This document shows positions 7,726-29,783 of a DNA stretch of 64,000 nt, in pieces; positions within the stretch are counted from its first letter, which is position 1, and every line of letters begins with the position of its first letter. Under the pieces are notes generated by a model, which ran no database searches, was not told the origin of the DNA, and worked only from the letters and a program-made list of their open reading frames with translations. The translations under genes and the position numbers were made by a program. Source of the stretch: an uncultured Bacilli bacterium (GTDB lineage Bacteria > Bacillota_I > Bacilli_A > RF39 > UBA660); assembly GCA_947628235.1 (NCBI GenBank), contig CANQZC010000004.1:12314-76313 (forward strand), in the 5' to 3' direction.

Positions 7726-8160
7726 ATGAGAGAGTCATTTTGGGGTGTTATGATTATAGGAATGGGAATAGTATCTATGTTTCTTGTATACTTTTTCCAA
7801 TCTATCACTAACACGGATGAGCATAATTATGAATTGTTAAAAGAAACAACGGAAGCAGCAATGTATGACGCGATTGATCTTGCTGCTTACCGTTATGATG
7901 AAACAGTTCGAATTGATAGAGAAATTTTTGTAGAAAGTTTCTTTAGAAGATTCGCACAGGATGCAACTTTACAACATCAATATCATGTTTGGATTTATGA
8001 TGTTCATGAGGAACCACCTAAAGTTAGTATTAGAGTAGAGACGATGGGATCTGAAATTTCTACGACGATGAGTGGTGGAGACAGCATTAATTTTAAATTA
8101 ACGGATACAATTAATGCCATTTTGGAAACAAAATGGGGTGTTAATGGATATGGAGGATAG
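7726..8160 (+). CDS. TadE-like pseudopilin/minor pilin candidate
   Basis: The MRESFWG N-terminus followed by a hydrophobic helix is shared with the ORFs at 12445 and 13000 (MRESIG, MREAVG). The small size fits a TadE/TadF-like protein. Confidence 0.35.
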   Translation: MRESFWGVMIIGMGIVSMFLVYFFQSITNTDEHNYELLKETTEAAMYDAIDLAAYRYDETVRIDREIFVESFFRRFAQDATLQHQYHVWIYDVHEEPPKVSIRVETMGSEISTTMSGGDSINFKLTDTINAILETKWGVNGYGG

Positions 8161-8165
8161 AAAAT

Positions 8166-9026
8166 ATGAATAATTTTATGATTTCTGCAAAAAGACTTAT
8201 CACAAACAAAAATACCGTTACCATCATAGGCGTTCTTATCGTTCTTGTTATTCTATACTGGGGATATAAGTCTACTATTGATAATGCGGTAAAACCAGTT
8301 AGTGTTCCATTTGCTAATAAGTTAATTGGACCACAAACTGAGATTACAGCTGATGATATCAGTTGGAAAAATGTTGCTAACGCAGCAAAAGATAATACAG
8401 TATTGATGAGAGAAAGCGACATTGTTGGAAAATACACTGCTGTAAATGCTACGATTCCAGAAGGAAGTATGTTTTATAGTGATGTATTAATCAATAAGGA
8501 AGATCTTCCTGGTTCTTGGTTAACAAGAATTAAAACAGATGTTAATGGAGTACCTGAAATTCCTTATTACATTTCTGTAAATATCGTTACTACATTTGGT
8601 AAATCTATTCAACCAGATGATTATATTGATATTTATATGAAAGCAAAAGATGAATCAGACTTGATTATGTTCGGTAAACTTATCGAAAATATTCAAGTAT
8701 TAGCAGTTAAAGATATGAGTGGTGAAGATGTTTTCAAAGATGTTGATAGCGATGCTACTCCAGCTTACTTATATTTCGGTGTATCTAGTGAGTTACATGA
8801 CTTATTAAGAAAAGCTTTATATTTAAGTAGTATTGGTGTTGAAATCATCGTTGTACCACATGGAGGTATTTCTCCAGTTACTGGAGATGTAGTTGTAAGT
8901 AGTGCTTATCTAAGAGACTATATCGATGCACACAGTGTTGTTATTCCAACAGATGAAGAATATGTTGAAAACTTAGATGGAAGCAATACAAATACAAACA
9001 CTGGAACAAATCCAGCAGGAAATTAA
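8166..9026 (+). CDS. CpaB/RcpC-like Flp pilus assembly protein
   Basis: An N-terminal TM is followed by a SAF-like segment (ITADDISW ... GKYTAVNATIPEGSMF). Placement just upstream of the CpaF ATPase supports the call. Confidence 0.45.
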   Translation: MNNFMISAKRLITNKNTVTIIGVLIVLVILYWGYKSTIDNAVKPVSVPFANKLIGPQTEITADDISWKNVANAAKDNTVLMRESDIVGKYTAVNATIPEGSMFYSDVLINKEDLPGSWLTRIKTDVNGVPEIPYYISVNIVTTFGKSIQPDDYIDIYMKAKDESDLIMFGKLIENIQVLAVKDMSGEDVFKDVDSDATPAYLYFGVSSELHDLLRKALYLSSIGVEIIVVPHGGISPVTGDVVVSSAYLRDYIDAHSVVIPTDEEYVENLDGSNTNTNTGTNPAGN

Positions 9027-9069
9027 TAAAAAGTAAAAAGAAGAATGAATAAAAAGGCTTGGTGAATAT

Positions 9070-10395
9070 ATGGATAATATATTTGATCAGATGGACTTCG
9101 GTTCATTACAACAATATCTTGACAATGACGATGTAACCGATATTTCCTACAGTAATGGAGGACAATTATGGTTAAAGACATTATCTCATGGTATATTTAG
9201 AGTAGAAAATCCTTTAATCGATAACAATTTCATGGAAAAGTTAGCATTCCAATGTTCCAATGTTGTTGGTCATAGTTTCAACGCAGCTCACCCTTTCCTA
9301 GATAGTGAAAGCGCTGAGTTGCGTATGAACTTTATCCATGATTCTATCGCTCGAAATGGGATTGCATGTGTTATTCGTAAAACACCAGCAAAGATTCGTT
9401 TGGAACATGATAAAATTATTGAAGAAAAATATATTACAGAAGATATTCATGATTTATTAATTCGTTGTGTTCACGGTCATTGTAATATGATTGTATCTGG
9501 AGAAACTGGTTCAGGTAAAACTGAGTTTGTAAAATACTTAGCTTCTCACACATACGAAAATGAAAAATTGATAACGATAGAGGATACCCTCGAACTTCAC
9601 TTGGATAGAATTTATCCACACAGAGACATCGTTGCTATGAAAACAAATAATGTTGCTAGTTATACCGATGTACTTGTTTCTTGTATGAGACAGAACCCTA
9701 AATGGATATTACTTTCCGAGGTTCGTAGTGCAGAGGCAGTACTTGCTGCCAGAAACTCTATTTCTTCTGGTCACTATATTCTTTCTACTATCCATGCCGA
9801 TAGGGCAACATCTATCCCTAACCGTATGTATAGTTTGCTAGAAACAAACCAAGAAATTGATCAATTCTTAAGATCTATCTATCGATATATTCAAATTGGT
9901 ATTTATATCCGTGGATATCAAGATAGAGTATCTAAAAGATTTGTTCGTGAGATTGCGGAAGTTTGTGAATTTTATGTTACGGAAGAAAATGAAGCAAAAT
10001 ATAATATTTTATTTCAAAAAACTCCAGCAGGAAAAATTACAAAGCATCCGCCAAGCAAATATTTAGTTGCTTATTTGGAGGCTCAAGGAGTTATCCTTCC
10101 AGAAGGTTTTATGGCAGGAGAAGCTACCGACAATGGAGTTTCTGCCTCTGAGACACTAGAAAAGGAAGATCCTTTCGCAGAACCTGCAAATAGCGAAGAA
10201 GGAGAAGGAGGACAAGAAGTACAACCTACTTCAACAGTTCCTACTGCCCCTGTAAGTCAACCAATGAATCCTATGGCAAGTCAACCTCAACCCACGATGA
10301 CTGTGCCACAACAAGTGAGTCCAATGACTCAACCACAAATGATGGCTCAAATGCCACCACAGGCAAGTCCAACGACTGCTTTTCCAACACAATAA
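9070..10395 (+). CDS. CpaF/TadA-family (VirB11-like) secretion ATPase with a C-terminal P/Q/T/M-rich tail
   Basis: Walker A GETGSGKTE, the ILLSEVRSAEA Asp-box region and the TIHA His-box are present. The last 90 or so aa are low complexity. Confidence 0.8.
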   Translation: MDNIFDQMDFGSLQQYLDNDDVTDISYSNGGQLWLKTLSHGIFRVENPLIDNNFMEKLAFQCSNVVGHSFNAAHPFLDSESAELRMNFIHDSIARNGIACVIRKTPAKIRLEHDKIIEEKYITEDIHDLLIRCVHGHCNMIVSGETGSGKTEFVKYLASHTYENEKLITIEDTLELHLDRIYPHRDIVAMKTNNVASYTDVLVSCMRQNPKWILLSEVRSAEAVLAARNSISSGHYILSTIHADRATSIPNRMYSLLETNQEIDQFLRSIYRYIQIGIYIRGYQDRVSKRFVREIAEVCEFYVTEENEAKYNILFQKTPAGKITKHPPSKYLVAYLEAQGVILPEGFMAGEATDNGVSASETLEKEDPFAEPANSEEGEGGQEVQPTSTVPTAPVSQPMNPMASQPQPTMTVPQQVSPMTQPQMMAQMPPQASPTTAFPTQ

Positions 10396-10413
10396 TAGAA
10401 AAGGAGGAAAAAT

Positions 10414-11319
10414 ATGAGTGTAACAGTAATCTTTTTTATCTGCTCTGTTATTGTTATCTTCATCTTAGTCTATAGAAGTGCGAATGGAGAAAATGTATAC
10501 AAATATGTAAGTGATAGAACAGCTTTTATCTATGATCGATTTGCACCTTATTCTTTTAAGACGATTCGTGACAAGGTAAAAGATTTAGGACAAGAATATA
10601 CGACGCACCAATACATTGTACAAGTTGTCAGTTTTGCTTTAGGTGCAGCAGTAATTTCTTACTTATATTTCTATAACTTAATTATTTCTGTCATTTATGC
10701 TATTATTGCTGTTTGCTTTATTCCTTATTTGACATATTTACGGTGTAAAAGAATTTACAGTGAATTTATTTTCGAGCAAATTCAAATTTACACAACTAAT
10801 ACAATTATGGAATTCGCAACAACACAATCTTTCGTTAAGGCACTAGAAGGTGTTTACGAATCTGGAGTACTTGAAGATCCTGTAAAGACAGATGTTAAAG
10901 TCATGATTGATATGTCTTATGAAAATGGTACAATTGATCAGTCTTTAAGTTTTATGAGTACTAAATATGACTTCTATATGGTAAAGAATATGCATCAATT
11001 GTTCTTACAAATTACGAATGAAGGTGCAAAGGATACTGCTGAGTCTCTAGAAAACATGTCACAGGATATCGATATGCTTGTTGAAAATGTATATCGAGAT
11101 AGACTAGACAGAGCTCAGTTTCATAAGAAGTTCTTACAATTTGGTATTATCTTATACTTTATGTGTATGTTACTTCAGTTCTTATTAGGATCTGAAACTT
11201 ATCTAGAAATGCTTGAGAGATGGTATGTACAATTGCTACTTCACGCGATTTTAATTGTTAATACTTTCTTCTTACTAAAAGGAGAAAAATACTATAATGA
11301 GAATGTAGGTGCGGAATAA
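10414..11319 (+). CDS. TadB-like (GspF-family) membrane protein
   Basis: Topology of an N-terminal TM, a cytoplasmic domain, then paired TMs. It sits directly after the CpaF-like ATPase and its stop overlaps the next start (TAATG). Confidence 0.45.
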   Translation: MSVTVIFFICSVIVIFILVYRSANGENVYKYVSDRTAFIYDRFAPYSFKTIRDKVKDLGQEYTTHQYIVQVVSFALGAAVISYLYFYNLIISVIYAIIAVCFIPYLTYLRCKRIYSEFIFEQIQIYTTNTIMEFATTQSFVKALEGVYESGVLEDPVKTDVKVMIDMSYENGTIDQSLSFMSTKYDFYMVKNMHQLFLQITNEGAKDTAESLENMSQDIDMLVENVYRDRLDRAQFHKKFLQFGIILYFMCMLLQFLLGSETYLEMLERWYVQLLLHAILIVNTFFLLKGEKYYNENVGAE

Positions 11320-12104
11320 TGGAATTTATAATTATTGCAGTTATTATTGTATTTATTTTGAACTATAACCGTGTAGTAGATACCAATCGGTTTGTTACCG
11401 ATACGGAACCATACTTTAGAGCATTGATGGAAGATGATTATGTTTTCTTACTTAATATTCGTTATCCAGGCCGTGATATTAATGTTAATGAATTATATGG
11501 AATTCGTGTAAGAAATGGTATTATTACGATTATTGCTTTAATCTTCTTATTCTTTAATCAATTATCTTTTATTTACATATTAATTGCTTTTATTGCTGGA
11601 TATCTAGTATTTAAAAGCCCATATAATTCTTTAAAATCTTATTACAAAGCAAATTTACACCATATTAACTTGATGCTTCCTTACTATTTAAAGAGTTTGG
11701 AAATCTTGGTACAACACTATACCGTACCAGTAGCATTAAGTAGAAGTATTGATACAGCTCCAGAAGTATTCAAGCCAGGACTACAAAGATTAGTAGCCAG
11801 AATTGATGCCGGAGATTCTAGTATTCAACCTTATATTGATTTTGCTAATGAATATCCAGTTCGTGATTCTATGCGTATGATGCGTTTGTTATATCGTTTA
11901 GGATTAGGATCTCAACAGGATAAGCACGAACAAGTTATGATGTTCTCTAGAACCGTTTCTGCTTTACAAAATAAGGCAAGAGAACAAAAATATAAGGAAC
12001 GCCTAGAAACCATGGAAAATCAAACCATGATTATGTTATTCTCTACTGGTGGTGGAGTTATGGGACTTATGTTACTATCTATGATGGTACTTATGACCTT
12101 TTAA
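11319..12104 (+). CDS. TadC-like (GspF-family) membrane protein
   Basis: Similar GspF-like topology; position in the gene order. Confidence 0.45.
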   Translation: MEFIIIAVIIVFILNYNRVVDTNRFVTDTEPYFRALMEDDYVFLLNIRYPGRDINVNELYGIRVRNGIITIIALIFLFFNQLSFIYILIAFIAGYLVFKSPYNSLKSYYKANLHHINLMLPYYLKSLEILVQHYTVPVALSRSIDTAPEVFKPGLQRLVARIDAGDSSIQPYIDFANEYPVRDSMRMMRLLYRLGLGSQQDKHEQVMMFSRTVSALQNKAREQKYKERLETMENQTMIMLFSTGGGVMGLMLLSMMVLMTF

Positions 12105-12114
12105 TCAAAATTTA

Positions 12115-12144
12115 TTGAAAAATAAAAAAGTAATGTGTTATAAT
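12115..12144 (+). promoter_or_regulatory. Sigma-A type promoter: TTGAAA, 18 nt spacer, TATAAT with an upstream TGT (extended -10)
   Basis: The hexamers can be read directly in the intergenic region upstream of the small pilin gene. Confidence 0.4.
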
Positions 12145-12171
12145 AATGTTAGAATGTAAGGTGGTGAGAGA

Positions 12172-12411
12172 ATGAAAGAAGCTGCAGGTGAAGCAAACTT
12201 AACTGTAGTTGCAATTATCTTAATTGCAGTAATCGTAGCAGTAGCTACCCCATTAATCAATAGTTTGATGAGAAGTTCAGCTAGAAGATCTTGCTGTACT
12301 GATGCCGGAGGTGTTTGGAAAAGCAACAACTGCATAGCAGCATCAAATGACAGAACTGGTCAATTCGACTCTGCTGGATATTCAAGCTGCGTATCAGAAG
12401 CTGGACAATAA
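12172..12411 (+). CDS. Small Flp/class-III-signal-peptide-like pilin candidate with a Cys-rich C-terminus
   Basis: A short charged leader MKEAAG is followed by a 25 aa hydrophobic helix. The protein is 79 aa and lies between TadC-like and TadE-like genes. It is noncanonical because the G/XXXXEY motif is absent. Confidence 0.4.
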   Translation: MKEAAGEANLTVVAIILIAVIVAVATPLINSLMRSSARRSCCTDAGGVWKSNNCIAASNDRTGQFDSAGYSSCVSEAGQ

Positions 12412-12444: not shown

Positions 12445-12978
12445 ATGAGGGAAAGCATAGGGACTTCATTTATGTTAAATTTTATAGTTTTATTTATATT
12501 TTTAGTGTTTGCCTTCTTAGCTGGAACTTTTAGCTATTACAAGGCCTATAGAGTTAACAATTATATCGTTAACTCTCTTGAAATCTATGAAGGATATAAT
12601 GAATATTCAAAGGATCAAATGGATGTAGGACTAACTAGTATGGGATATGATATTACAACAAAGATAGATTGTCCAAGTACATGGGAAAACACGAGTCAAA
12701 GTTATTTGGCGCGTGAAAATGGAGAAATTGCTAAATTTAATGTAATAGGGCAAAGAGCTTTAGTGGATTTAAACCATCCAGACGAGGGATATTGCGTTTA
12801 TTTGTATTGGAATGATGATTCCACTCTTGCCGCAGACAATTCCTATGGATTGGAAACAACAGATGTTTACTATACTTATGGTGTCTTAACATACATGAAA
12901 TTTCGTTTTCCTGTCATTGAAAACATTTTGAGAATTCCTATATTTTCTAGAACCAATAGAATGTATTATTTTGGATAA
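12445..12978 (+). CDS. TadE/TadF-like pseudopilin candidate
   Basis: The MRESIG N-terminus plus a hydrophobic helix is paralogous to the ORFs at 7726 and 13000. Confidence 0.35.
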   Translation: MRESIGTSFMLNFIVLFIFLVFAFLAGTFSYYKAYRVNNYIVNSLEIYEGYNEYSKDQMDVGLTSMGYDITTKIDCPSTWENTSQSYLARENGEIAKFNVIGQRALVDLNHPDEGYCVYLYWNDDSTLAADNSYGLETTDVYYTYGVLTYMKFRFPVIENILRIPIFSRTNRMYYFG

Positions 12979-14467: not shown

Positions 14468-14492
14468 CTTTAATATAATCAGAGGTGATATT

Positions 14493-15813: not shown

Positions 15814-15867
15814 CTACTTTTCAATTGATAAAAAAAATAGTATAATGACTTTGAAGGAGTGTATGTT

Positions 15868-17387: not shown

Positions 17388-17416
17388 ATTGACAAACAAA
17401 AATAGGTATAGTATAA
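17388..17416 (+). promoter_or_regulatory. Consensus sigma-A promoter: TTGACA, 17 nt spacer, TATAAT
   Basis: Perfect hexamers can be read directly. A GAGGAGG RBS lies 6 nt before the P4 ATG. Confidence 0.55.
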
Positions 17417-17441
17417 TTATTATAATTAGAGGAGGAAGAAA

Positions 17442-22741: not shown

Positions 22742-24763
22742 ATGAATAATAAGCCAAATAACGGTGGCGGTGGAACCCCATCGTTATCACCTTCTGTGAA
22801 GGAAAGAGATTTAGAGAGTCAAGGGAAAAATTTGATGGAGGGAAAAGCTCGTGCTGTTACTCCTCCTCCTATTCCTAAAAGTAATCCAAGTAGTTCCAAT
22901 GCATCTTTACCTAAGCAGGGTGGAATTCCTAGTCAAGAAAGGGTAGGTTCTAAGGAAGGTATTGGCAGTCAAGGAGGACTGCCACCCAGAGAAAGCATTA
23001 ATAGTGGTGCTGGAACTCCAGCTGCACATAATGGACAAGGTGGGGGAGTTGCTGCAGGTGGAAAATCTAATCCACAAGCTCAGGCTTTAAAAAATAGAGT
23101 GGCTTCTGCTGCTCTTCAGGCGGCAGGAGTACCTAAGGCTGTTAGTGATATGGCTGTCAATTCAAAACTTGGTAAAAAAGCTATGACGGCGATGCAAGAC
23201 CCTGCTAAAGCGGCTCTTAATGGTGTAAAAAATGTAGGAAAAAGTGAAGCTGAAAAGGATGCTGCTGAAAAAGAAGAGGAAGAAAAAGAAAAGGAAAAAA
23301 CAACAGGCGGAGTTACTTTGAGGGTACCTCTTTCCGTAAAACTTACTATTTTCTTAGGAATTTTACCTTCTTTTTGCTTTATTATCATTTTTATGATGAT
23401 TATTGTTTCTTATGTAGCCGATGAAAAAGCATTTAATATTTTCATGGGTAAAATTGTAGGAGATAAAGATGCTAGCGATATATATGATTTCAAAGAAGAA
23501 ATGGGTATGGGTGGTACTCTAGACGATATTGGTATGGGTACTGGTGGAATTACTTTTGATGAATTCTTAAATAGATATCAAAATTTAGGAAATATTTATG
23601 AATATTTTGATTGTGAATCTAAAGAAGAATGCTTAGAGAGAGACGAAGTAAAATTTTATATCAAAGTCAATGATATTATGCTTCGTTACTATCATAAATA
23701 TAATGGTATTAATTTAGACTGGGAGTTGTTAATGTCAACCGTATTAAGTCTAGACATTGATGTGAAAGAAATGTTTAAAGAACTATGGCATTCTTATAAC
23801 TATGATGATGTTGAAAATTATGAAATCTTAATGGATTTAGATTGGGATTATGATTATAAAAAAATTCCTGGGTATGATTATTTAAGCCCTAGCGATTATC
23901 GCTATGATTTACAGATACTCGCGAAAAATATGGTTACGAAAACGACTACTCAGACTTGTACAAAATTAGTAAGAAATGAAGATGGTTCTACTTCTACCGT
24001 AGTAACGAAAACAAGAACAGATACAGATATCGAAGATATGTATCTTCAACCAGGACAACCATATTATTTAAAATGCGATGCTGGAGAAACTTATCATATT
24101 TCTAGTAATTACCGGTTAGATATGGATAAATATGATGAATTTTTATCTGAATACTTAGAGAAAAAATTATATTTGCCTGAAACGGCAGATGATAGTTATA
24201 TTCCAGATGAAAATGGTCAAATCACAATTGATCATGTAACAGGAGATAGTTTATCTGCTAAAATGGTTAATTTAGCCCTTGCTCAACAAGGAATAGAGGG
24301 TAGTTATGAACACAACGGTGATAATAATGTCATTTATAATACTTGGTATTATGGAAGAGAAGTTAGTGGATCAGCTTATCCTTGGTGTGCAGCTTTCGTA
24401 TCTTGGGTAGTAGCGCATACCGAACATGATGGTACTCAGTTATTAAGTATTTTAAATCATAAATCTGCATCTGTGCAGAATTGGGCCAGTTATTTTCAAA
24501 ATACTTCTACATTACAGCTTAAAAATTCTTCCTATTTAGGAGGTAATTACACACCAAAACAAGGAGATATGATTTTCTTCTCTTGGAAAGGTGATAATGG
24601 TTGTAGTAATACTGGAATCAGCACCATGGATCATATTGGTATTGTCGTTGAAGTACAAGGAAATAATGTTATTACTATCGAAGGAAATACTGCCAATAAG
24701 GTAGCAACCAGAACTTATGCGTTAGATAGTTGTGAAATTACAGCCTATGGGGTTTGGTACTAA
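22742..24763 (+). CDS. Membrane-anchored peptidoglycan hydrolase with a C-terminal CHAP domain (functional analog of VirB1, TcpG and CwlT)
   Basis: A 190 aa G/P/S/A-rich N-terminal region is followed by one TM. The C-terminus has the CHAP Cys (YPWCAAFVSW) and His (DHIGIVVEV) motifs. Confidence 0.65.
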   Translation: MNNKPNNGGGGTPSLSPSVKERDLESQGKNLMEGKARAVTPPPIPKSNPSSSNASLPKQGGIPSQERVGSKEGIGSQGGLPPRESINSGAGTPAAHNGQGGGVAAGGKSNPQAQALKNRVASAALQAAGVPKAVSDMAVNSKLGKKAMTAMQDPAKAALNGVKNVGKSEAEKDAAEKEEEEKEKEKTTGGVTLRVPLSVKLTIFLGILPSFCFIIIFMMIIVSYVADEKAFNIFMGKIVGDKDASDIYDFKEEMGMGGTLDDIGMGTGGITFDEFLNRYQNLGNIYEYFDCESKEECLERDEVKFYIKVNDIMLRYYHKYNGINLDWELLMSTVLSLDIDVKEMFKELWHSYNYDDVENYEILMDLDWDYDYKKIPGYDYLSPSDYRYDLQILAKNMVTKTTTQTCTKLVRNEDGSTSTVVTKTRTDTDIEDMYLQPGQPYYLKCDAGETYHISSNYRLDMDKYDEFLSEYLEKKLYLPETADDSYIPDENGQITIDHVTGDSLSAKMVNLALAQQGIEGSYEHNGDNNVIYNTWYYGREVSGSAYPWCAAFVSWVVAHTEHDGTQLLSILNHKSASVQNWASYFQNTSTLQLKNSSYLGGNYTPKQGDMIFFSWKGDNGCSNTGISTMDHIGIVVEVQGNNVITIEGNTANKVATRTYALDSCEITAYGVWY

Positions 24764-24766
24764 GAG

Positions 24767-25456
24767 GTGCTTATGAAAAAAATAATTGGACTATTTGTAT
24801 TAACCCTTTTTATTAGTGGGTGTAGTAGTGAATATAATGTAAAAATTACTTCTGATAAGATAGAGGAAAATATCAACATTGTTGTGGATAAAAGTTTAAT
24901 AGGAGAAGATGCGGGAAATCCAAATGACCCTGTCAATCCAACAGAATCAGACGATCAAATTACCCCATTTATCAAAGGAGATCAATATCCATTTTCTAAT
25001 AATACTTCTCAAAAATATGAAAAAGTGGTTACTGAAGATAAAGATAATTATTATATTCAATTAAATTATTCTTTTCTTCCATCTCAATATGGAAACTCAA
25101 CTGCACTTTCTAGTTGCTTTGAAAAACATGAATTTGTAGAAAATGAGAAGTATTATGAAATCAAATTGGGAGGAGCTTTTTACTGTTTATATTCTGATGC
25201 TTTAACCATTAATTTAAATACTCCAAATATTGTTAAAGAAAACAATGCAGAACAAGTGAATGGCGATACCTACACTTGGACAATCAATAATCAAAATGTT
25301 CGAAATACAGATATTTCTATTAAAATTATGAAGACAACCAAATGGCAACAATATCTTATTTATGGAATTATGATTGGTGTTATAGTAATTGTTGTGATTG
25401 GTGCTCTTGTTTTAGCGAATATATTTGCGAATAAAGAATCTCGTAATAAAATCTAG
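24767..25456 (+). CDS. Lipoprotein with a C-terminal TM anchor
   Basis: Lipobox FISGCSS; a C-terminal hydrophobic helix followed by KESRNKI. Confidence 0.5.
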   Translation: MLMKKIIGLFVLTLFISGCSSEYNVKITSDKIEENINIVVDKSLIGEDAGNPNDPVNPTESDDQITPFIKGDQYPFSNNTSQKYEKVVTEDKDNYYIQLNYSFLPSQYGNSTALSSCFEKHEFVENEKYYEIKLGGAFYCLYSDALTINLNTPNIVKENNAEQVNGDTYTWTINNQNVRNTDISIKIMKTTKWQQYLIYGIMIGVIVIVVIGALVLANIFANKESRNKI

Positions 25457-25466
25457 GAGGTGCTAT

Positions 25467-26855
25467 ATGAAAAAGAGAATGAAAAAAATTTTTATAGCCA
25501 ATTTAGTGATATGTCTTTGTCTATTTCATATAGCAAATGTTTTTTCCTATGAATACATAGATTCAAAGAATAAAACACCAGTGGAGCAAAAGAAAAAAGA
25601 AATTTATCAAATGCAGCAGATGTATCAGTTCCTTTTAGGGGAAGACGAGTCTAACTACATTATGAATTATAGTGGAGCATGTAGTACGGTTACTGTCGAA
25701 GGTAGTGGTACATATACACTAGATCAGTATATTGCTGGAGTTGTTAAGGCGGAGGTAGGATCTGAATCTGATAAGCCAGAACTTTTAAAAGCACAGGCAA
25801 TTGCCGCTAGATCTTTTGTTATTGCTAGTATGGGAGAAGATACTTTGACCTGTACCGTTCCTAATGGTCAAAGTTTCCAAGCATTCTCTGAAGTAAGTGA
25901 TGGAAACTCAGCAGATGCTCCTTACATTAAAGCCGCTCAAGAAACTTCTGGAATGGTTATTATGAAAGATGGAAAAGTAGCGCTTACGCAATACTTATCT
26001 TATCCAAATAGTAAATTCTGTTATGAAGTGGATGGAAAGTGGCATATTAATTTTCAAAAATTTGGAAGTGATTCAAGCACTGCTTGGGAATGGGTTGGAC
26101 CTTCTAAAGCAGAAGTATTAGCTGCTAATAACTGGGCTCCTCAGTCAGGAGCACCTTCTACTACTCACCATTTTGGAATGAGTCAAATTGTAGCTGGATG
26201 GATGGCAGCAAATGGCAAAACATATCAAGAAATTCTAGAGACTTTCTATGGGGAAAGTATTGGTATGTTAAGCGACGGTAATTACACTGGAGAATTAGAG
26301 TTTGTAGATTCTGATTTCGGTCAAATTACTTATTGGAACCAAGGAGATTTTGGTAATTATTACTATTCTTCTGATGTATCTACTCCTCAGTATAAAGGTT
26401 CTAGTGGAAAGTGGGCAACAATTGCTAGTCACGGTTGTGGTCCATCTTCTATGGCTATTATTTTATCTAGTTTTACGGGACAACAAATCTCTCCAATTAC
26501 GACGACACAACAAGTGTGTAAATTAGGAGGATGTACAAGTGGCGGTAGTACTTATGGTTCTCTTGCCCAACTTGCTAAACAATATGGATACAAAGCAGAA
26601 TTTGTTGGCAAAGATGGTAATCTTTCTAAGGTAACCAATGCCCTTGCTAGTGGAAATTCTTTAGTAGTAGCGCTTATGGGACCTGGAGTATTTACGAGTG
26701 GTGGTCACTATATTGTTCTTACAGGAACAAGATCTGATGGAATGGTATCTGTTGCTGATCCTGCAAGTAGAAAAAGAACACAACAAAAATGGTTTTCATT
26801 TAATTTAGTTGTTTCACAAGCAAAAGGTAGCGGATTCTTAATTGTTACTAAATAG
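25467..26855 (+). CDS. Secreted bifunctional cell-wall hydrolase: a SpoIID/LytB-like domain plus a C39-like cysteine peptidase domain
   Basis: The ATG at 25467 follows a TAGGAGGTG RBS. The SpoIID-type motif LLKAQAIAARSFVI is present. The C-terminus has GCGPSSMAIIL ... GGHYIVLTG, a Cys and His pair. Confidence 0.55.
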   Translation: MKKRMKKIFIANLVICLCLFHIANVFSYEYIDSKNKTPVEQKKKEIYQMQQMYQFLLGEDESNYIMNYSGACSTVTVEGSGTYTLDQYIAGVVKAEVGSESDKPELLKAQAIAARSFVIASMGEDTLTCTVPNGQSFQAFSEVSDGNSADAPYIKAAQETSGMVIMKDGKVALTQYLSYPNSKFCYEVDGKWHINFQKFGSDSSTAWEWVGPSKAEVLAANNWAPQSGAPSTTHHFGMSQIVAGWMAANGKTYQEILETFYGESIGMLSDGNYTGELEFVDSDFGQITYWNQGDFGNYYYSSDVSTPQYKGSSGKWATIASHGCGPSSMAIILSSFTGQQISPITTTQQVCKLGGCTSGGSTYGSLAQLAKQYGYKAEFVGKDGNLSKVTNALASGNSLVVALMGPGVFTSGGHYIVLTGTRSDGMVSVADPASRKRTQQKWFSFNLVVSQAKGSGFLIVTK

Positions 26856-26864
26856 GAGGAATTT

Positions 26865-27557
26865 ATGAGAAAAAAGTTAATCTTATTACTTTTATTGGTA
26901 ATGTTATGTTGTGGATGTGAGGCAAATTATACTTTAAAAATCAATGATGATTTAACGGTAGTGGAAACTATTAGCGCTACGGAAGGCCCTGAATTCTTTA
27001 GTGAATATCCAAAGTCTTCTGTACAATGGGTAGTTGGTTCTGTTTTTATAGAACCAAACCTAGAGTATATTAATAAAATAGGGTACGATATTAATTACAT
27101 TACTTCCAAAGAAGAGGGAGGAGCTAAACTTATTGGAAAATATAGTAGTTTAGACGAATATAAAGAGAAATCTGAATTTCCTAATCAAATAGATGGGGAA
27201 TGGAATTATACGAAAGATGGAGATCTTATTACCCTTTCTTTAAAAGGAAGATTTTCCGCTGATGAGCAAGATCAAGATGGAAGATATAAAATAGATAATG
27301 GAACTATCAGTATTACGGTTCCCTTTACCGTAACCAATCAAAACGCTGATAGCGTAAATAAAGAAACAAATACCTATACTTGGCATTTTGATAATGAAAA
27401 GGAGAAAGAGTTAACGATTACTTTTGACTCTTCTAGTTTAAAGAAAGATGAATTTCCATATATCGTAATTGCTATTGTAGTTGTTTTAGTTATCATTATT
27501 TTCTATGGAATAATGATAGCAATTGATAAAAATAAGCGTAGAAATAAATTAGATTAA
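26865..27557 (+). CDS. Lipoprotein with a C-terminal TM anchor (architecture paralogous to the ORF at 24767)
   Basis: Lipobox LCCGCEA; a C-terminal hydrophobic helix followed by KNKRRNK. Confidence 0.5.
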   Translation: MRKKLILLLLLVMLCCGCEANYTLKINDDLTVVETISATEGPEFFSEYPKSSVQWVVGSVFIEPNLEYINKIGYDINYITSKEEGGAKLIGKYSSLDEYKEKSEFPNQIDGEWNYTKDGDLITLSLKGRFSADEQDQDGRYKIDNGTISITVPFTVTNQNADSVNKETNTYTWHFDNEKEKELTITFDSSSLKKDEFPYIVIAIVVVLVIIIFYGIMIAIDKNKRRNKLD

Positions 27558-27575
27558 TAGAGAGTAGGTGATACC

Positions 27576-29783
27576 TTGAAATTAAAATTTCGTGCTGAGA
27601 CAAAGGATGTAGTTATCTTTTGCATCTTTTCTGCAGTTCTTTTCTTTCTTATTTGCTTAGCTGTATCGAATGTAGGAATTTTTATTGCGGAAAATGAATT
27701 TGTTGGTTTCAATATCATTCCTGCTTTAACAAGATATTTACCATTTACCTTGATGCTTTTTATTATTTCTATTATAGCTATGTTCTTAAGTGTTCAGTCT
27801 TGGTTTATTGAAAGAGAAGAAGGTATTGGTATTCAAATTGGTGCCAAAAAGGAAAAAAATTATTCTAGATGGGCCAAAGATAAAGAAATTCAAAATGGAC
27901 TAGATGTAGTAGCCGTTGATCCTCTAGCGCCTAAGACTGATGCTGCTGGTATACCATTAATTATGACACCTAAAAAAGTTTGGGTAGATAATGGTGGATA
28001 TCACAACCTAGTTATCGGTTCTACTGGTGCTGGTAAAACACAGACTACTGTACTTCCTATGGTAAATTTACTTGCAAAACATGATGAGTCTATGATTATT
28101 ACAGACCCTAAAGGTGAAATTTATGAATTAACTTCTAACTATTTAAAAAGTTTAGGATACAATATCGTTCTTTTGAACTTCCGTGATCCTCAGCAAGGAA
28201 ATAGTTGGAATCCAATGTATTTACCATATTCTTTATATAAACAGCATAAAATTGATAAATCTATCGAGTTATTGGAAGACTTAGCAGCCAATATCTTAAA
28301 GGACCCTTCTGCGAAGGGACAAGACCCATTCTGGGAAAATACATCAGCAGATTACTTTTCAGGATTGTCTTTTGCGCTTTTTGAAGATGGTGATGAGTCT
28401 CAAATTAACTTAAATAGTATTAACTTAATGACGACAGTAGGAGAAGAGAAACTAGCTAATACTACCTATATTAAAGAGTATTTTAGTTTTAAAGATCCTG
28501 CTAGTACAGCTTATATTAAAGCATCATCAACATTGATGGCACCAAATGAAACAAAAGGATCTATCCTTTCTGTATTTAAACAGAGAGTTCAATTATTCGC
28601 ATCTCGTACCAATTTATCTGAGATGCTTGCCAATAATGACTTTGATATGCGAGATATTGGTCGAAAAAAGACGGCTGTATTTATCGTTATTCAAGATGAA
28701 AAAACAACTTATCATACATTAGTTACGATTTTCTTGAAGCAATGCTATGAAACACTTATTTCTGTAGCGCAAGAAAGTGGAGGAAAACTTCCTCATAGAA
28801 CTAATTTTATTCTAGATGAGTTTGCTAACATGCCACCATTAAAAGATGTTACTACGATGGTTACAGCGGCTCGTTCTAGAAATATTCGTTTTACGTTTAT
28901 TATCCAGAACTTCTCTCAATTATATGAAGTATATGGAAAAGAAAATGGTGAAACAATTAAAGGTAACTGTGGTAACATCGTTTACTTAATTAGTACAGAG
29001 TTAAGTGCTTTGGAAGAGATTAGTAAAATGTGTGGAGAAGTAAAATCAAAAGAAAAAGAAAAGACTTCCTCTACGCCACTGGTTACTGTCAGTGATTTAC
29101 AAAGAATGGAACAATGGCAAACAATTATCCTTCGTATTCGAACGATGCCATTTAAGACTAAATTAACTCCTAACTTTAAGATGGATTGGGGACATAATTT
29201 CCCTAAAGCAGATTATCCACAAAGAGAGGAAATTCCTGTTCAAATCTTTGATTTAAAGGGATTTGTAGAGAAGAAAAGAGAAGAGAAAATTAATAATTTA
29301 TTAGGAAATTCCGGAACTCCTGGAGGAGGAGTTCCAACTCCAATTCCAACTCCTGGAATGCCAACTTCTCAGTTCCCACCTACGCCATTTGGAGCAGGAA
29401 CACCAAGCAACCCTTTCTCTTCTAGACCATTCCCACCAAAGGCTGGCATGACGAATGCTGCGGAAAAGAAACCTGCTGGTGGAGGAATTAATGTAGAAGA
29501 CTTAGTTAAGAGAATAGATGCGAAAATTGCTGAATTAGAAGAAGAAGAAAAGAGAGAAAAAGAGGCACAAGGTGGTGGAATTCCAAATCCAGAGATACCA
29601 AATCCAGAGATACCAAATCCAGAGATACCAAATCCGGAAATTTCAACACCTATGGAAACACAGCCACAAATGCCTGTTTCTTCTCCTGTCACGCCAACTA
29701 GAGAGCCAGAAAAACCTAAAGAGACAACTGCTCCAAAAGTTAGCGATGATGAATTCTTTGATGATTTCTTTGGAGATGATTAA
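27576..29783 (+). CDS. VirD4/TraG/TcpA-like type IV coupling protein with a Pro-rich repetitive C-terminal tail
   Basis: Two N-terminal TMs; Walker A LVIGSTGAGKTQT; Walker B region ILDEFANMP. The start is a TTG, 5 nt after TAGGTGA. Confidence 0.75.
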   Translation: MKLKFRAETKDVVIFCIFSAVLFFLICLAVSNVGIFIAENEFVGFNIIPALTRYLPFTLMLFIISIIAMFLSVQSWFIEREEGIGIQIGAKKEKNYSRWAKDKEIQNGLDVVAVDPLAPKTDAAGIPLIMTPKKVWVDNGGYHNLVIGSTGAGKTQTTVLPMVNLLAKHDESMIITDPKGEIYELTSNYLKSLGYNIVLLNFRDPQQGNSWNPMYLPYSLYKQHKIDKSIELLEDLAANILKDPSAKGQDPFWENTSADYFSGLSFALFEDGDESQINLNSINLMTTVGEEKLANTTYIKEYFSFKDPASTAYIKASSTLMAPNETKGSILSVFKQRVQLFASRTNLSEMLANNDFDMRDIGRKKTAVFIVIQDEKTTYHTLVTIFLKQCYETLISVAQESGGKLPHRTNFILDEFANMPPLKDVTTMVTAARSRNIRFTFIIQNFSQLYEVYGKENGETIKGNCGNIVYLISTELSALEEISKMCGEVKSKEKEKTSSTPLVTVSDLQRMEQWQTIILRIRTMPFKTKLTPNFKMDWGHNFPKADYPQREEIPVQIFDLKGFVEKKREEKINNLLGNSGTPGGGVPTPIPTPGMPTSQFPPTPFGAGTPSNPFSSRPFPPKAGMTNAAEKKPAGGGINVEDLVKRIDAKIAELEEEEKREKEAQGGGIPNPEIPNPEIPNPEIPNPEISTPMETQPQMPVSSPVTPTREPEKPKETTAPKVSDDEFFDDFFGDD
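29583..29642 (+). repeat. Four tandem 15-bp repeats, CCAAATCCAGAGATA, encoding (IPNPE)x4
   Basis: Three copies are identical and one has diverged. They lie in frame inside the VirD4-like tail. Confidence 0.8.

What the first reader, a model, noticed from the sequence alone, without database searches (positions are those of the whole stretch)
7726..29783. Composite locus combining a Tad/Flp-type pilus module with a VirB4/VirB6/VirD4 type IV secretion core, with no relaxase or integrase
Read directly from the translations. The Tad-like module is TadE-like, CpaB/RcpC-like, a CpaF/TadA ATPase (GETGSGKTE), two GspF-like TadB/TadC proteins, a small pilin, two more TadE/F-like proteins and a TadZ-like protein. 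The conjugation-type module follows co-directionally: a VirB6-like polytopic protein, a VirB3/PrgI-like protein, VirB4 (GTSGSGKST), a CHAP hydrolase, a second SpoIID/C39 hydrolase, lipoproteins, and a VirD4/TraG coupling protein (GSTGAGKT). By established knowledge, Gram-positive conjugative T4SSs (Tn916, ICEBs1, pCW3, pCF10 types) use VirB4, VirB6, VirD4 and a hydrolase but lack a VirB11/CpaF-type ATPase and pilus genes, while Tad loci lack VirB4, VirB6 and VirD4. Finding both in one apparently co-transcribed block is unusual, as is the absence of any MOB relaxase, oriT-like nick site, integrase or tRNA across the block. By inference this is either a pilus-assisted conjugation-like machine whose DNA-processing genes lie elsewhere, or a domesticated T4SS-like apparatus for protein or DNA export or uptake, with the archaeal Ced/Ted importers as a loose analogy.
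Basis: partly seen in the sequence, partly recalled or inferred. Interest (0 to 1): 0.9.

Follow-up and report, generated by a model that had tools for sequence, protein, structure and literature searches.

The report
Core chromosomal pilus-plus-T4SS machine
A 34-kb gene block joining a Tad-like pilus module, an array of VirB2-like pilins and a VirB4/VirB6/VirD4 secretion channel is a fixed, highly conserved chromosomal feature of hundreds of uncultured, small-genome gut Bacilli rather than a mobile element, which suggests these bacteria depend on a conjugation-derived machine to interact with other cells.

Summary
It holds a CpaF/VirB11-type ATPase, a CpaB homologue, DUF5411-type and other pilin-like proteins, and two conserved polytopic proteins. 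The T4SS part is VirB6-like, VirB3-like, a split VirB4, two wall hydrolases and a CD1115-family VirD4.

No relaxase, integrase, tRNA or flanking repeat occurs anywhere in the 64 kb.

The same gene order at the same chromosomal position recurs in at least 579 species-level genomes of uncultured Bacilli/'Tenericutes' (RF39-like). Its ATPases are more conserved than ScpA/ScpB. It is therefore a vertically inherited core machine, not an ICE.

The claim that Gram-positive T4SSs never carry such an ATPase or pilus genes is wrong. pLS20-family and Paraclostridium plasmids carry a similar composite next to a MOBP relaxase.

The TadB/TadC and TadZ assignments remain unproven.

The closest functional parallel is the relaxase-less, pilin-array T4SS that is essential in epibiotic Patescibacteria. 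I found no paper describing this system in RF39-like Bacilli. Verdict: a new variant of a known kind, with high interest.

The parts
1939..3540 (+). Gene C: 533-aa membrane/extracellular protein, first gene of the block
   Evidence: No Pfam/NCBIfam hit. Homologue directly upstream of the module in 62 of 86 loci.
3634..4326 (+). Gene D: 230-aa secreted protein with a C-terminal TM anchor
   Evidence: No family hit. Conserved in 60 loci, always after C.
4327..7719 (+). Gene E: 1130-aa Cys-rich secreted protein, variable; candidate adhesin (inference)
   Evidence: No family hit. Present in only 18 loci at 24-44% identity; relatives carry 1269-1296-aa counterparts.
7726..8160 (+). Gene F: DUF5411 protein, pseudopilin-like, N-terminus MKESFWG followed by a hydrophobic helix
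   Evidence: PF17424, E 5e-46. The family HMM hits an ORF in the Bacillus Tad-like locus at E 5e-6. DUF5411 co-occurs with CpaF and PilC/GspF in Clostridia (PMC9523054).
8166..9026 (+). Gene G: CpaB/RcpC-like protein
   Evidence: RcpC E 6e-4 and TIGR03177 E 3e-6, both sub-threshold. The family HMM hits annotated Bacillus CpaB at E 1.4e-37; tblastn E 6e-21.
9070..10395 (+). Gene H: CpaF/VirB11-family secretion ATPase with a Pro/Gln-rich tail
   Evidence: T2SSE 92.9 bits. NCBIfam: VirB11 105 bits, TadA-type 98 bits, TrbB 96 bits, all below cutoffs. Best solved relatives: CpaF 66 bits, FlaI 58, VirB11 51. Median 77% identity across 83 loci.
10414..11319 (+). Gene I: 301-aa polytopic protein in the TadB position; candidate platform protein
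   Evidence: No Pfam or PDB hit. AF2 pLDDT 70.6 with no GspF-like fold match. The family HMM hits the Bacillus protein downstream of CpaF at E 1.5e-8, and that protein has a weak T2SSF hit at E 0.007. 70% median identity.
11319..12104 (+). Gene J: 261-aa polytopic protein in the TadC position
   Evidence: No Pfam or PDB hit. hhalign against the Paraclostridium plasmid pLS20-gene-39-like protein: probability 81%, E 1.2e-5, 208 columns. 66% median identity.
12115..12144 (+). Promoter-like site (TTGAAA-18-TATAAT, TG-extended) ahead of the pilin gene
   Evidence: 11 of 12 match. Promoter-like counts overall are at chance level. An insertion in L068 separates J from K, consistent with an own promoter.
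12172..12411 (+). Gene K: 79-aa pilin-like protein with invariant N-terminus MKEAAGEAN, a hydrophobic helix and a Cys-rich tail
   Evidence: Alignment of 23 homologues. No Flp G/XXXXEY motif.
12445..12978 (+). Gene L: minor-pilin-like protein (MRESIG plus a hydrophobic helix)
   Evidence: No family hit. N-terminal motif shared with F, K and M. Present in 69 loci.
13000..13473 (+). Gene M: minor-pilin-like protein (MREAVG plus a hydrophobic helix)
   Evidence: Same as L.
13493..14467 (+). Gene N: 324-aa cytoplasmic protein, possible TadZ/CpaE-like with a degenerate P-loop (KSSGATTL)
   Evidence: No Pfam, NCBIfam or PDB hit. hhalign to the Bacillus proteins gave only 5-8% probability. AF2 single-sequence pLDDT 40, unusable. 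60% median identity.
14451..15275 (+). VirB2-like T4SS_pilin paralogue 1
   Evidence: Shared TM-loop-TM hairpin. PF18895 E 0.42 for this member, in a set where 6 of 7 paralogues match and the best is 7.7e-7. Local family HMM E 5.5e-37.
15286..15813 (+). VirB2-like T4SS_pilin paralogue 2
   Evidence: (repeat family D1).
15859..16266 (+). VirB2-like T4SS_pilin paralogue 3
16284..17381 (+). Gene O: 365-aa N-terminally anchored extracellular protein
   Evidence: No family hit. Detected in 35 of the genome loci.
17389..17417 (+). Perfect sigma-70 consensus (TTGACA-17-TATAAT) ahead of pilin paralogue 4
   Evidence: 12 of 12 match.
17442..17831 (+). VirB2-like T4SS_pilin paralogue 4, the most conserved (59% median identity)
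17938..20073 (+). VirB6-like polytopic channel protein
   Evidence: TrbL_4 E 1.3e-5. MMCAP2_0566 E 1e-9, pLS20_p028 E 9e-8, Mbov_0396 E 2e-6. All are below the cutoffs.
20094..20426 (+). VirB3/PrgI-like small membrane protein
   Evidence: The orthologue in relatives carries a weak PF26592 PrgI_like hit. Same position as DUF5592 in pBS72 and the Paraclostridium plasmid.
20335..20934 (+). VirB4 N-terminal domain encoded as a separate ORF (the true start is probably downstream of 20335)
   Evidence: NF045975, E 7e-15, model positions 101-276. The 182-aa 'TraC-like' ORF is conserved in relatives. The HMM hits the pBS72 ORF preceding VirB4 at E 5e-4.
20931..22718 (+). VirB4 ATPase domain (Walker A GTSGSGKST)
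   Evidence: NF045975, 347 bits, model positions 296-893; CD1110, 171 bits. Pfam AAA_10 and P-loop_TraG. 79% median identity.
22742..24763 (+). Membrane-anchored CHAP peptidoglycan hydrolase
   Evidence: PF05257, E 3.8e-12.
24767..25456 (+). Lipoprotein with a C-terminal TM anchor
   Evidence: No family hit. Conserved position in relatives.
25425..26855 (+). SpoIID plus Peptidase_C39_2 wall-remodelling enzyme
26865..27557 (+). LppM-like lipoprotein with a C-terminal TM anchor
   Evidence: PF21946, E 1.7e-5, sub-threshold.
27576..29783 (+). VirD4 coupling protein, CD1115 family, with a Pro-rich acidic tail
   Evidence: PF02534, E 4e-57. NF045973, 292 bits against a cutoff of 250. 71-100% identity in 120 listed homologues.
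31309..32974 (+). RmuC and DUF2238 genes, conserved neighbours lying between VirD4 and the last pilin genes; membership of the system uncertain
33528..34823 (+). Pilin-fusion protein: Cys-rich extracellular domain plus a C-terminal T4SS_pilin hairpin
   Evidence: PF18895, E 2.8e-5. Local HMM E 3.6e-17. A 435-aa counterpart sits before rnr in relatives.
34864..36189 (+). Second pilin-fusion protein; its 3' 294 nt are 88% identical to the first
36183..36210 (+). Strong terminator-like hairpin (12-bp stem plus T-run) closing the block before rnr
43728..44174 (+). Seventh, unlinked T4SS_pilin paralogue

Best explanation
The block 1939-36210 is a chromosomally fixed, vertically inherited, relaxase-less descendant of a Firmicute conjugation apparatus. 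It has VirD4 of the CD1115 family, VirB4 of the Mycoplasma-ICE type and a VirB6 of the pLS20_p028 type. It carries its own Tad-like filament module and an array of VirB2-like pilins.

In this lineage of small-genome, uncultured Bacilli (RF39-like) it has become a core cell-envelope machine for contact-dependent exchange with other cells. It is not a vehicle for moving a mobile element.

Proposed working (inferred):
1. The CHAP and SpoIID/C39 enzymes open the wall.
2. The CpaF/VirB11-type ATPase, with the two polytopic proteins I and J, CpaB and protein N, assembles a short filament from the 79-aa pilin and three minor pilin-like proteins. These four share the N-terminal motif M-[KR]-E-[SA]-x-G.
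3. Split VirB4, VirB3-like and VirB6-like proteins build the membrane channel and polymerise the VirB2-like pilins. Some of these pilins carry large variable extracellular domains that could serve for target recognition.
4. VirD4 feeds a cytoplasmic substrate (protein or DNA) into the channel.

Shown: the gene content, the homologies listed, the conserved order and position, the strong conservation, and the lack of DNA-processing and integration genes in 64 kb.

Inferred: physical coupling of the two modules, filament formation, the substrate and its direction, and dependence of the organism on the system.
For: - **Synteny.** Gene order C-D-(E)-F...S is colinear in all 80 genome loci found through the ATPase, and J...S...X-RmuC is colinear in almost all long loci found independently through VirB4. 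scpB/scpA lie upstream in about 30 loci, and rnr/PGA_cap/smpB lie downstream.
- **Breadth.** At least 579 species-representative genomes carry it, all uncultured Bacilli/Tenericutes/Mollicutes-labelled MAGs, including 1.2-Mb closed genomes. More than 7,400 ATPase and VirD4 homologues were found.
- **Conservation.** Median identity is 77% for the ATPase, 70% for I, 66% for J and 79% for VirB4, against 62-63% for ScpA/ScpB in the same loci.
- **Not mobile.** No relaxase, integrase or tRNA in the window. No flanking repeats. No viral contig. GC and skew are uniform across the block and its flanks.
- **Split VirB4.** The split is conserved in relatives, so it is real.
- **Ancestry.** VirD4 passes the CD1115 cutoff and VirB4 tiles the Mbov_0397 model. 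pBS72 and the Paraclostridium plasmid have CpaF/VirB11 beside VirD4, p028 and VirB4. J is homologous to the plasmid's gene-39-like protein. F, G, H and I have homologues in a Bacillus plasmid Tad-like locus.
- **Pilin array.** Seven paralogues in the window and 1-7 per partial locus; a quarter are long fusions.
- **Parallel.** Patescibacteria have a chromosomal, relaxase-less, MPF_FATA-related T4SS with arrays of 2-11 VirB2-like pilins. It is essential in Southlakia (PMC12102498; PMC12857230). RF39 has highly reduced genomes with many auxotrophies (PMC6784871).
Against: - No experiment or expression data exist. A relaxase or a novel DNA-processing enzyme could lie elsewhere in the genome, and I could not scan whole genomes.
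- Several block proteins have no family hit and could hide such a function: C, D, E, O, 24767, 29868 and 33034.
- The platform-protein and TadZ assignments are weak, and no prepilin peptidase is in the window. A true Tad-type filament is therefore unproven, and the ATPase could act simply as a VirB11.
- Strong conservation of VirD4 is equally compatible with DNA transfer.
- One relative (L169) has VirB4 without VirD4 within 10 kb, and others tolerate insertions inside the block.
- That the window's organism belongs to GTDB order RF39 is inferred from record titles and genome sizes. It was not tested.
Confidence: 0.5

Rival explanations
1. It is a working conjugation system that moves DNA between cells of this lineage. 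This could be chromosomal segments or an unlinked element. Either the relaxase is encoded elsewhere, or transfer is relaxase-independent and distributive, as in Mycoplasma chromosomal transfer. The Tad-like filament would stabilise mating pairs.
For: - All recognisable T4SS parts are of conjugative type: VirD4 CD1115 above the cutoff, VirB4 closest to the Mycoplasma ICE family, and a p028-like VirB6.
- The closest plasmid relatives are conjugative or mobilisable with MOBP relaxases.
- The coupling protein is strongly conserved.
- RmuC, a recombination protein, is a conserved neighbour.
- The organisms are relatives of Mollicutes, in which ICE-driven chromosomal transfer is documented (cited in PMC12205969 and PMC12857230).
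Against: - No relaxase, oriT-like nick region, integrase or transposase lies in 64 kb or in the flanks of relatives.
- The block is fixed at one housekeeping position across hundreds of species, which is not expected for an element selected for transfer.
- Pilin arrays with variable ectodomains resemble host-interaction systems more than mating systems.
Confidence: 0.22
2. Two independent machines merely lie side by side: a Tad-like adhesion pilus (1939-14467) and a T4SS (14451-29783). They would have no functional coupling.
For: - F, G, H and I have homologues in a Bacillus plasmid Tad-like locus with no VirB4/VirD4 within 18 kb.
- DUF5411-CpaF-PilC operons exist alone in Clostridia.
- Internal promoter-like sites lie before the pilin genes.
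- L068 tolerates a 4.4-kb insertion within the block.
Against: - The junction is conserved without exception in loci long enough to show it, from both search directions.
- No + strand intergenic terminator occurs before 36183.
- The same juxtaposition occurs inside single conjugation operons of pLS20-type and Paraclostridium plasmids. Conserved linkage in unrelated replicons argues for joint function.
Confidence: 0.12
3. It is a DNA- or nutrient-uptake machine: a T4SS run as an importer, like H. pylori ComB or the archaeal Ced/Ted systems. It would feed a cell that cannot make nucleotides, lipids or amino acids.
For: - No relaxase is present.
- The host is inferred to be genome-reduced and auxotrophic.
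- VirB2-like pilins are also the filament of Ced/Ted importers (my own knowledge).
- VirB4 gives a weak CedD hit at E 4e-11.
- The review speculates about uptake for the Patescibacteria system.
Against: - A conserved VirD4 coupling protein points to export of a cytoplasmic substrate. ComB lacks VirD4 (my own knowledge).
- In Southlakia, comEC-dependent competence is separate from T4SS essentiality.
- No ComEC-like channel lies in the block.
Confidence: 0.1
4. It is a decaying integrated plasmid or ICE remnant with no current function.
For: It lacks mobility genes, VirB4 is split into two ORFs, and several genes have no family hit.
Against: - All ORFs are intact.
- The VirB4 split is conserved in relatives and in pBS72-type plasmids.
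- Identity across species exceeds that of ScpA/ScpB.
- Thousands of intact homologues exist.
Confidence: 0.02

Closest known systems
pLS20-family conjugation operon of Bacillus plasmids (genes 36-54), together with the related pBS72 and Paraclostridium bifermentans plasmid NZ_CP079739
   Same: - A VirB11/CpaF-type ATPase is followed by two proteins of roughly 240-270 aa with N- and C-terminal TM segments. Small N-terminally anchored proteins follow, then a 47-aa pilin-like ORF and a 2-TM 75-76-aa protein (PF18895 in the Paraclostridium plasmid).
- Next come a CD1115-type VirD4, a p028-type VirB6, a VirB3-like protein, a small ORF preceding VirB4, VirB4 itself and a wall hydrolase.
- J is homologous to the gene-39-like protein.
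   Different: - The plasmids carry a MOBP relaxase, replication, partition, regulation and exclusion genes. The window has none of these.
- The plasmids lack a CpaB homologue by tblastn, and a local G-family HMM also found none in the plasmid loci.
- They have one VirB2-like gene rather than seven.
- VirD4 lies upstream of VirB6 in the plasmids, not at the end of the cluster.
- I has no detectable similarity to the gene-38-like protein.
- The published description lists these genes as unknown and states there is no VirB2.
Chromosomal T4SS of Patescibacteria (for example Southlakia epibionticum, Nanosynbacter lyticus)
   Same: - Chromosomal and widely conserved in a genome-reduced monoderm lineage.
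- Related to MPF_FATA.
- No relaxase.
- Tandem arrays of divergent VirB2-like/T4SS_pilin genes.
- VirB3-, VirB4-, VirB6- and VirD4-like components (PMC12102498; PMC12857230).
   Different: - Different phylum.
- No VirB11/CpaF-type ATPase or Tad-like genes are reported in the Patescibacteria clusters; type IV pili are encoded separately.
- Essentiality is shown there and is untested here.
- The phylogenetic relation of the two VirB4 clades was not tested.
Mycoplasma integrative conjugative elements (Mbov_0396 / Mbov_0397 / MMCAP2_0566 families)
   Same: The best NCBIfam matches for VirB4 (347 bits for the C-terminal ORF plus 54 for the N-terminal ORF) and for the VirB6-like protein come from these families. 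The host lineage is related.
   Different: - MICEs are mobile, multi-copy and strain-variable.
- They have no Tad-like module or pilin array, to my knowledge.
- Scores are below the family cutoffs.
Tad-like locus of Bacillus cereus-group megaplasmids (for example B. wiedmannii ppl277), and DUF5411-CpaF-PilC operons of gut Clostridia
   Same: CpaB, a CpaF/VirB11 ATPase, a TadB-position protein homologous to I, a DUF5411-like protein and small pilins are present.
   Different: These loci stand alone without VirB4/VirB6/VirD4 in the flanks examined. The Bacillus locus has a canonical P-loop AAA ATPase. It also has a small polytopic protein in the position expected for a prepilin peptidase, which I did not test.
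Archaeal Ced/Ted DNA importers with Ups pili
   Same: A VirB4/HerA-type ATPase, VirB2-like pilins and a separate type IV filament are used together for DNA exchange without a relaxase (my own knowledge). VirB4 gives a weak CedD hit.
   Different: There is no sequence-level orthology beyond the ATPase fold, Ced lacks VirD4, and it is from a different domain of life.

Membership tests
Tad/Flp pilus (type IV filament superfamily) | CpaF/TadA-family hexameric ATPase | tested here: met
   T2SSE 92.9 bits against a cutoff of 24.9. Best solved relatives are CpaF, with coverage including the N-terminal domain. NCBIfam scores for VirB11, TadA-type and TrbB are nearly equal and all sub-threshold, so the protein is CpaF/VirB11-family rather than strictly CpaF.
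Tad/Flp pilus (type IV filament superfamily) | TadB/TadC platform proteins with a T2SSF (GspF) domain | tested here: inconclusive
Tad/Flp pilus (type IV filament superfamily) | Flp-type prepilin with the G/XXXXEY processing motif | tested here: not met
   The 79-aa pilin has the invariant N-terminus MKEAAGEAN(M/L)TV with no EY. A different shared motif, M-[KR]-E-[SA]-x-G, occurs in F, K, L and M.
Tad/Flp pilus (type IV filament superfamily) | Dedicated prepilin peptidase (TadV, Peptidase_A24) | tested here: not met
   No A24 hit among the ORFs scanned across the 64-kb window. The rest of the genome could not be searched.
Tad/Flp pilus (type IV filament superfamily) | CpaB/RcpC protein | tested here: met
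   Sub-threshold by Pfam and TIGR03177. The family HMM hits annotated Bacillus CpaB at E 1.4e-37.
Tad/Flp pilus (type IV filament superfamily) | TadZ/CpaE ParA-like localisation ATPase | tested here: inconclusive
   N has no profile or PDB hit. hhalign gives 5-8% probability. The AF2 model is unusable. Only a degenerate SGAT P-loop-like motif is seen by eye.
Gram-positive conjugative T4SS (MPF_FATA / pLS20-like) | VirB4 ATPase | tested here: met
   Two ORFs tile NF045975. Pfam AAA_10, P-loop_TraG and DUF87 also hit.
Gram-positive conjugative T4SS (MPF_FATA / pLS20-like) | VirD4 coupling protein | tested here: met
   NF045973 conju_CD1115, 292 bits against a cutoff of 250. PF02534, E 4e-57.
Gram-positive conjugative T4SS (MPF_FATA / pLS20-like) | VirB6-like and VirB3-like membrane proteins | tested here: met
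   Hits to TrbL_4, p028 and Mbov_0396 at E 1e-5 to 1e-9, below the cutoffs. A weak PrgI_like hit occurs in orthologues. Support is at sub-threshold level only.
Gram-positive conjugative T4SS (MPF_FATA / pLS20-like) | Peptidoglycan hydrolase | tested here: met
   CHAP, and SpoIID plus C39_2.
Gram-positive conjugative T4SS (MPF_FATA / pLS20-like) | VirB8-like (NTF2-fold) component | not tested
   The two lipoproteins (24767, 26865) have no VirB8/TcpC hit by Pfam or NCBIfam. No structure was predicted for them.
Gram-positive conjugative T4SS (MPF_FATA / pLS20-like) | Relaxase and oriT (needed for conjugation) | tested here: not met
   No MOB, Rep_trans or TcpM-type hit in any scanned ORF of the window, and none in the flanks of relatives. 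A genome-wide search was not possible.
Integrative conjugative element | Integrase or transposase, flanking direct repeats, tRNA or other att site, variable presence | tested here: not met
   No integrase. No tRNA. No flanking repeats. Same position and order across genomes.
Patescibacteria-type co-opted chromosomal T4SS | Chromosomal, relaxase-less cluster with an array of VirB2-like/T4SS_pilin genes | tested here: met
   Seven paralogues in the window. Six of seven match PF18895 at E<=1, the best at 7.7e-7. There are 1-7 per partial locus. Criteria are as given in PMC12102498.
Patescibacteria-type co-opted chromosomal T4SS | VirB4 inside the Patescibacteria VirB4 clade | not tested
Patescibacteria-type co-opted chromosomal T4SS | Required for growth on or with a partner cell | not testable with these tools
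   Needs cultivation and genetics.

The most novel reading that the evidence does not exclude
RF39-like Bacilli are among the most prevalent uncultured gut bacteria. On this reading they depend on a core chromosomal T4SS with VirB2-like pili and an integrated Tad-like filament to live in physical association with other cells. That would be a second, independent origin of the Patescibacteria-style 'essential T4SS' lifestyle. It would also be the first bona fide Firmicute-lineage T4SS to carry both conjugative-type pilins and a VirB11/CpaF ATPase. Both features are stated to be absent from Gram-positive systems in the current review literature.
Probability: 0.3. Interest if true: 0.85.

Novelty: new variant of a known kind. 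Interest (0 to 1): 0.7.

Why it matters
RF39-like bacteria are widespread in human and animal guts. They are uncultured and lack fatty-acid, amino-acid and vitamin synthesis (PMC6784871). How they obtain what they need is unknown.

A conjugation-derived machine that is fixed in the chromosome and more conserved than ScpA/ScpB, the only housekeeping genes compared, is a concrete and testable candidate for that dependence. Its variable pilin ectodomains add to this. It could also guide co-culture strategies.

The finding also bears on T4SS biology. [quoted passage not shown] This locus and its plasmid relatives (pLS20 family, Paraclostridium) contradict both statements. They suggest that a Tad-like sub-module is an unrecognised part of a whole class of monoderm T4SSs.

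Tried and rejected
- **Source look-up.** Exact look-up of the window's ATPase and of the 100%-identical VirD4 hit found no contig on record, so the source genome could not be retrieved.
- **Profile searches against PDB.** I, J and N gave nothing meaningful.
- **I versus J.** hhalign shows they are not detectable paralogues.
- **Representative search.** A search of 1.8 billion representatives with the I profile found only 287 relatives, mostly fragments. The few distant full-length ones carry no T2SSF domain.
- **Structure of N.** Single-sequence AF2 failed, pLDDT 40.
- **hhalign of N against two Bacillus candidates.** Insignificant.
- **hhalign of I against the Paraclostridium gene-38-like protein.** Insignificant.
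- **Phage or viral origin.** Rejected: no viral contig encodes a relative.
- **ICE or prophage boundaries.** Rejected: no tRNA, no flanking repeats, no compositional shift.
- **Sequencing frameshift in VirB4.** Rejected: the same two-ORF arrangement occurs in relatives.
- **Promoter and terminator scans.** Counts are at chance level overall; only three individual sites are worth noting.
- **Rfam.** No hit.
- **Literature.** Searches linking RF39 with T4SS, pili or competence found nothing relevant.

Full report
**What is there**

The window is a low-GC (about 33%) chromosome segment with uniform composition and GC skew. It has no tRNA and no Rfam match.

Between the divergently oriented scpA/scpB genes (518-1797) and rnr (36235) lies an uninterrupted run of + strand genes from 1939 to 36189. 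Everything outside this run is housekeeping: YfhO, ScpAB, RNase R, SmpB, SpoVG, DivIC, GreA, ClpP, GAPDH, IF3, L20, ClpB, RuvAB, QueA and others.

**Profile evidence: the filament side**

- 7726 is DUF5411 (E 5e-46).
- 8166 is a weak RcpC/CpaB match.
- 9070 is a T2SSE ATPase. Its NCBIfam scores for VirB11, TadA-type and TrbB are nearly equal and all sub-threshold. Its best solved relatives are CpaF, then FlaI, then VirB11.
- The two polytopic proteins (10414, 11319), the 79-aa pilin-like protein, two further N-terminally anchored proteins (12445, 13000) and the 324-aa protein (13493) have no family hit.

**Profile evidence: the T4SS side**

- 17938 matches TrbL_4, pLS20_p028 and Mycoplasma ICE VirB6-type families at sub-threshold level.
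- VirB4 is encoded as two ORFs (20335-20934 and 20931-22718). Together they tile the Mbov_0397 model at positions 101-276 and 296-893.
- 22742 is a CHAP hydrolase and 25425 is SpoIID plus Peptidase_C39_2.
- VirD4 (27576) passes the NCBIfam cutoff for the CD1115 family.

- Four paralogous small 2-TM proteins lie at 14451, 15286, 15859 and 17442. The C-termini of two 430-440-aa proteins (33528, 34864) and an unlinked gene at 43728 share the same TM-loop-TM hairpin.
- Six of these seven match Pfam T4SS_pilin (PF18895), the best at E 7.7e-7. They are VirB2-like pilins.
- The block also includes conserved upstream genes at 1939, 3634 and 4327.
- It ends at a strong terminator-like hairpin at 36183-36210.
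- A perfect sigma-70 consensus precedes the most conserved pilin paralogue (17389-17417), and an 11/12 TG-extended site precedes the 79-aa pilin gene. Overall, promoter and terminator counts are at chance level.

**It is not a mobile element**

- The ATPase, VirD4 and protein I each have thousands of homologues; the 120 best listed for each are 71-100% identical.
- A scan of one genome per species found at least 579 genomes encoding the ATPase. Nearly all are labelled uncultured Bacilli, Tenericutes, Mollicutes, Erysipelotrichaceae or Acholeplasmataceae. They include closed 1.2-Mb genomes.
- In the 80 loci retrieved, the gene order C-D-(E)-F-G-H-I-J-K-L-M-N-(O)-VirB6-VirB3-VirB4N-VirB4C is strictly colinear. 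About 30 of them show scpB/scpA immediately upstream.
- Loci retrieved through VirD4 show VirB6 through VirD4, then RmuC, DUF2238, a pilin-fusion gene, rnr, PGA_cap and smpB.
- An independent metagenome scan seeded with VirB4 again gives J...N-(O)-VirB6...VirD4-RmuC in almost all long loci.
- Median identities are ATPase 77%, I 70%, J 66% and VirB4 79%. These exceed ScpA/ScpB at 62-63% in the same loci.
- There are no flanking direct repeats, no viral contigs, and no relaxase, integrase or transposase hit anywhere in the window.
- The VirB4 split is conserved (182 + 595 aa in relatives), so it is not an artefact.
- Variation exists. Gene E is variable. L068 has a 4.4-kb insertion between J and the pilin gene. 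L147 and L169 have 5-6 tandem pilin-domain genes, and L169 lacks VirD4 within 10 kb.

**Is the filament module really Tad-like?**

Partly.

- A family HMM for the CpaB-like protein hits an annotated CpaB in a Tad-like locus on a Bacillus wiedmannii megaplasmid at E 1.4e-37.
- The DUF5411 family hits another ORF of that locus.
- The I family hits the protein immediately downstream of that locus's CpaF at E 1.5e-8. That Bacillus protein has a weak T2SSF match at E 0.007.
- DUF5411 was previously noted next to CpaF and PilC/GspF in predicted operons of gut Clostridia (PMC9523054).
- Proteins F, K, L and M share an N-terminal M-[KR]-E-[SA]-x-G motif before a hydrophobic helix. This suggests a common pilin-type signal, but it is not the Flp G/XXXXEY motif.
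- No prepilin peptidase is in the window.
- N could not be assigned.

The module is therefore best called 'Tad-like, Firmicute type'. The ATPase and CpaB are supported. The platform and TadZ roles are inferred from position and topology.

**Precedent**

It also appears in a 2025 review, which says Gram-positive T4SSs universally lack VirB11, and lack VirB2 except in Patescibacteria (PMC12857230).

- The pLS20 family encodes a VirB11 homologue (gene 37). It is followed by genes 38-45, proteins of 268, 243, 120, 47 and 76 aa with TM segments, listed as unknown (PMC8557374).
- pAW63 also has a VirB11 homologue (PMC9673590).
- pBS72 shows VirD4, CpaF/VirB11, p028, DUF5592, VirB4, a hydrolase and MobP2.
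- A Paraclostridium MOBP plasmid shows CpaF/VirB11, a 270-aa protein, a 240-aa protein, small ORFs, VirD4, p028, DUF5592, a 192-aa ORF and VirB4.
- That plasmid's 75-aa ORF passes the PF18895 cutoff. Its 240-aa protein is homologous to J (hhalign probability 81%, E 1.2e-5).
- A VirB4 N-terminal-like ORF also precedes VirB4 in pBS72.

The composite architecture therefore belongs to a poorly characterised class of monoderm conjugation systems. The window carries a chromosomal version of it without DNA-processing genes, with CpaB added and the pilin genes amplified.

**Closest functional parallel**

Patescibacteria carry a chromosomal, MPF_FATA-related T4SS that usually lacks a relaxase. It has arrays of 2-11 divergent VirB2-like pilins and is essential for epibiotic growth of Southlakia (PMC12102498; PMC12857230).

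RF39, the GTDB order these MAG labels and genome sizes suggest, is described as highly genome-reduced with many auxotrophies (PMC6784871). That the window belongs to RF39 is my inference. I found no paper linking RF39 to a T4SS, a Tad pilus or competence pili.

**Interpretation**

The best-supported reading (confidence 0.5) is a domesticated, core, contact-dependent translocation machine. In it, the Tad-like filament and the VirB2-like pilins serve envelope crossing and target contact, and VirD4 feeds a cytoplasmic substrate into the channel.

The rivals are:
- genuine DNA conjugation with an unlinked or unconventional relaxase (0.22);
- two uncoupled neighbouring systems (0.12);
- an importer (0.10);
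- a decaying remnant (0.02).

The substrate, its direction and the coupling of the two modules are not shown by any result here.

**Verdict**

The finding is a new variant of a known kind, with interest 0.7.

Noticed in passing
window 43728-44174: A seventh T4SS_pilin (VirB2-like) paralogue lies 7.5 kb outside the block, among housekeeping genes (LemA/GerQ side, before the peptidase U32 genes).
   Followed up: partly
window 34554-34847 and 35920-36213: The 3' 294 nt of the two pilin-fusion genes are 88% identical, while their 5' parts are diverged. This gives a constant membrane hairpin and a variable ectodomain, suggesting duplication or gene conversion.
   Followed up: partly
window 29868-31299: A 379-aa acidic protein with 33-nt tandem repeats (WGEQAIQDVKD, 30788-30952) and a DUF4176 protein sit between VirD4 and RmuC only in this genome. 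Close relatives have NfeD and Band_7 genes there.
   Followed up: partly
window 29580-29639 and 10200-10395: VirD4 and the CpaF/VirB11-type ATPase both end in Pro/Gln-rich low-complexity tails. The VirD4 tail has 15-nt tandem repeats (IPNPE) and an acidic DDEFFDDFFGDD terminus.
   Followed up: no
L089 (NZ_CP079739.1) 23941-24168: A 75-aa ORF on a Paraclostridium bifermentans MOBP plasmid scores above the Pfam cutoff for T4SS_pilin. This indicates a VirB2-like pilin on a Gram-positive conjugation-type plasmid, contrary to statements in the pLS20-family paper and a 2025 review.
   Followed up: partly
L068 12957-17141: In a closed 1.2-Mb genome, a 4.4-kb insertion of unrelated ORFs (including a 399-aa ATPase-like protein) splits the block between gene J and the pilin gene.
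   Followed up: no
L169 and L147, upstream of VirB6 (about 170-6900): Five to six tandem pilin-domain genes occur here, most of them 200-480-aa fusions. In L169, VirB4 is followed by unrelated genes, including a ComGC-like type IV pilin (17095-17598), and no VirD4 lies within 10 kb.
   Followed up: partly
window 54985-57211: Three adjacent genes encode Tim44-like domain proteins, two of them with Gly/Ser/Asp/Tyr-rich N-terminal regions and C-terminal double zinc ribbons. Function unknown.
   Followed up: no
window 41384-43646 and 25425-26855: Sporulation-associated families (SpoVG, YabP, GerQ, a SpoIID domain) are present in what appears to be a reduced genome. Whether the organism sporulates is unclear.
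   Followed up: no
L088 (NZ_CP133559.1) 8512-22964: The Bacillus wiedmannii megaplasmid carries a stand-alone Tad-like locus: a receiver-like/degenerate P-loop protein, a DUF5411-like protein, DUF4320, CpaB, an AAA ATPase, CpaF, two polytopic proteins and three 68-aa pilins. Most of it is annotated as hypothetical.
   Followed up: partly
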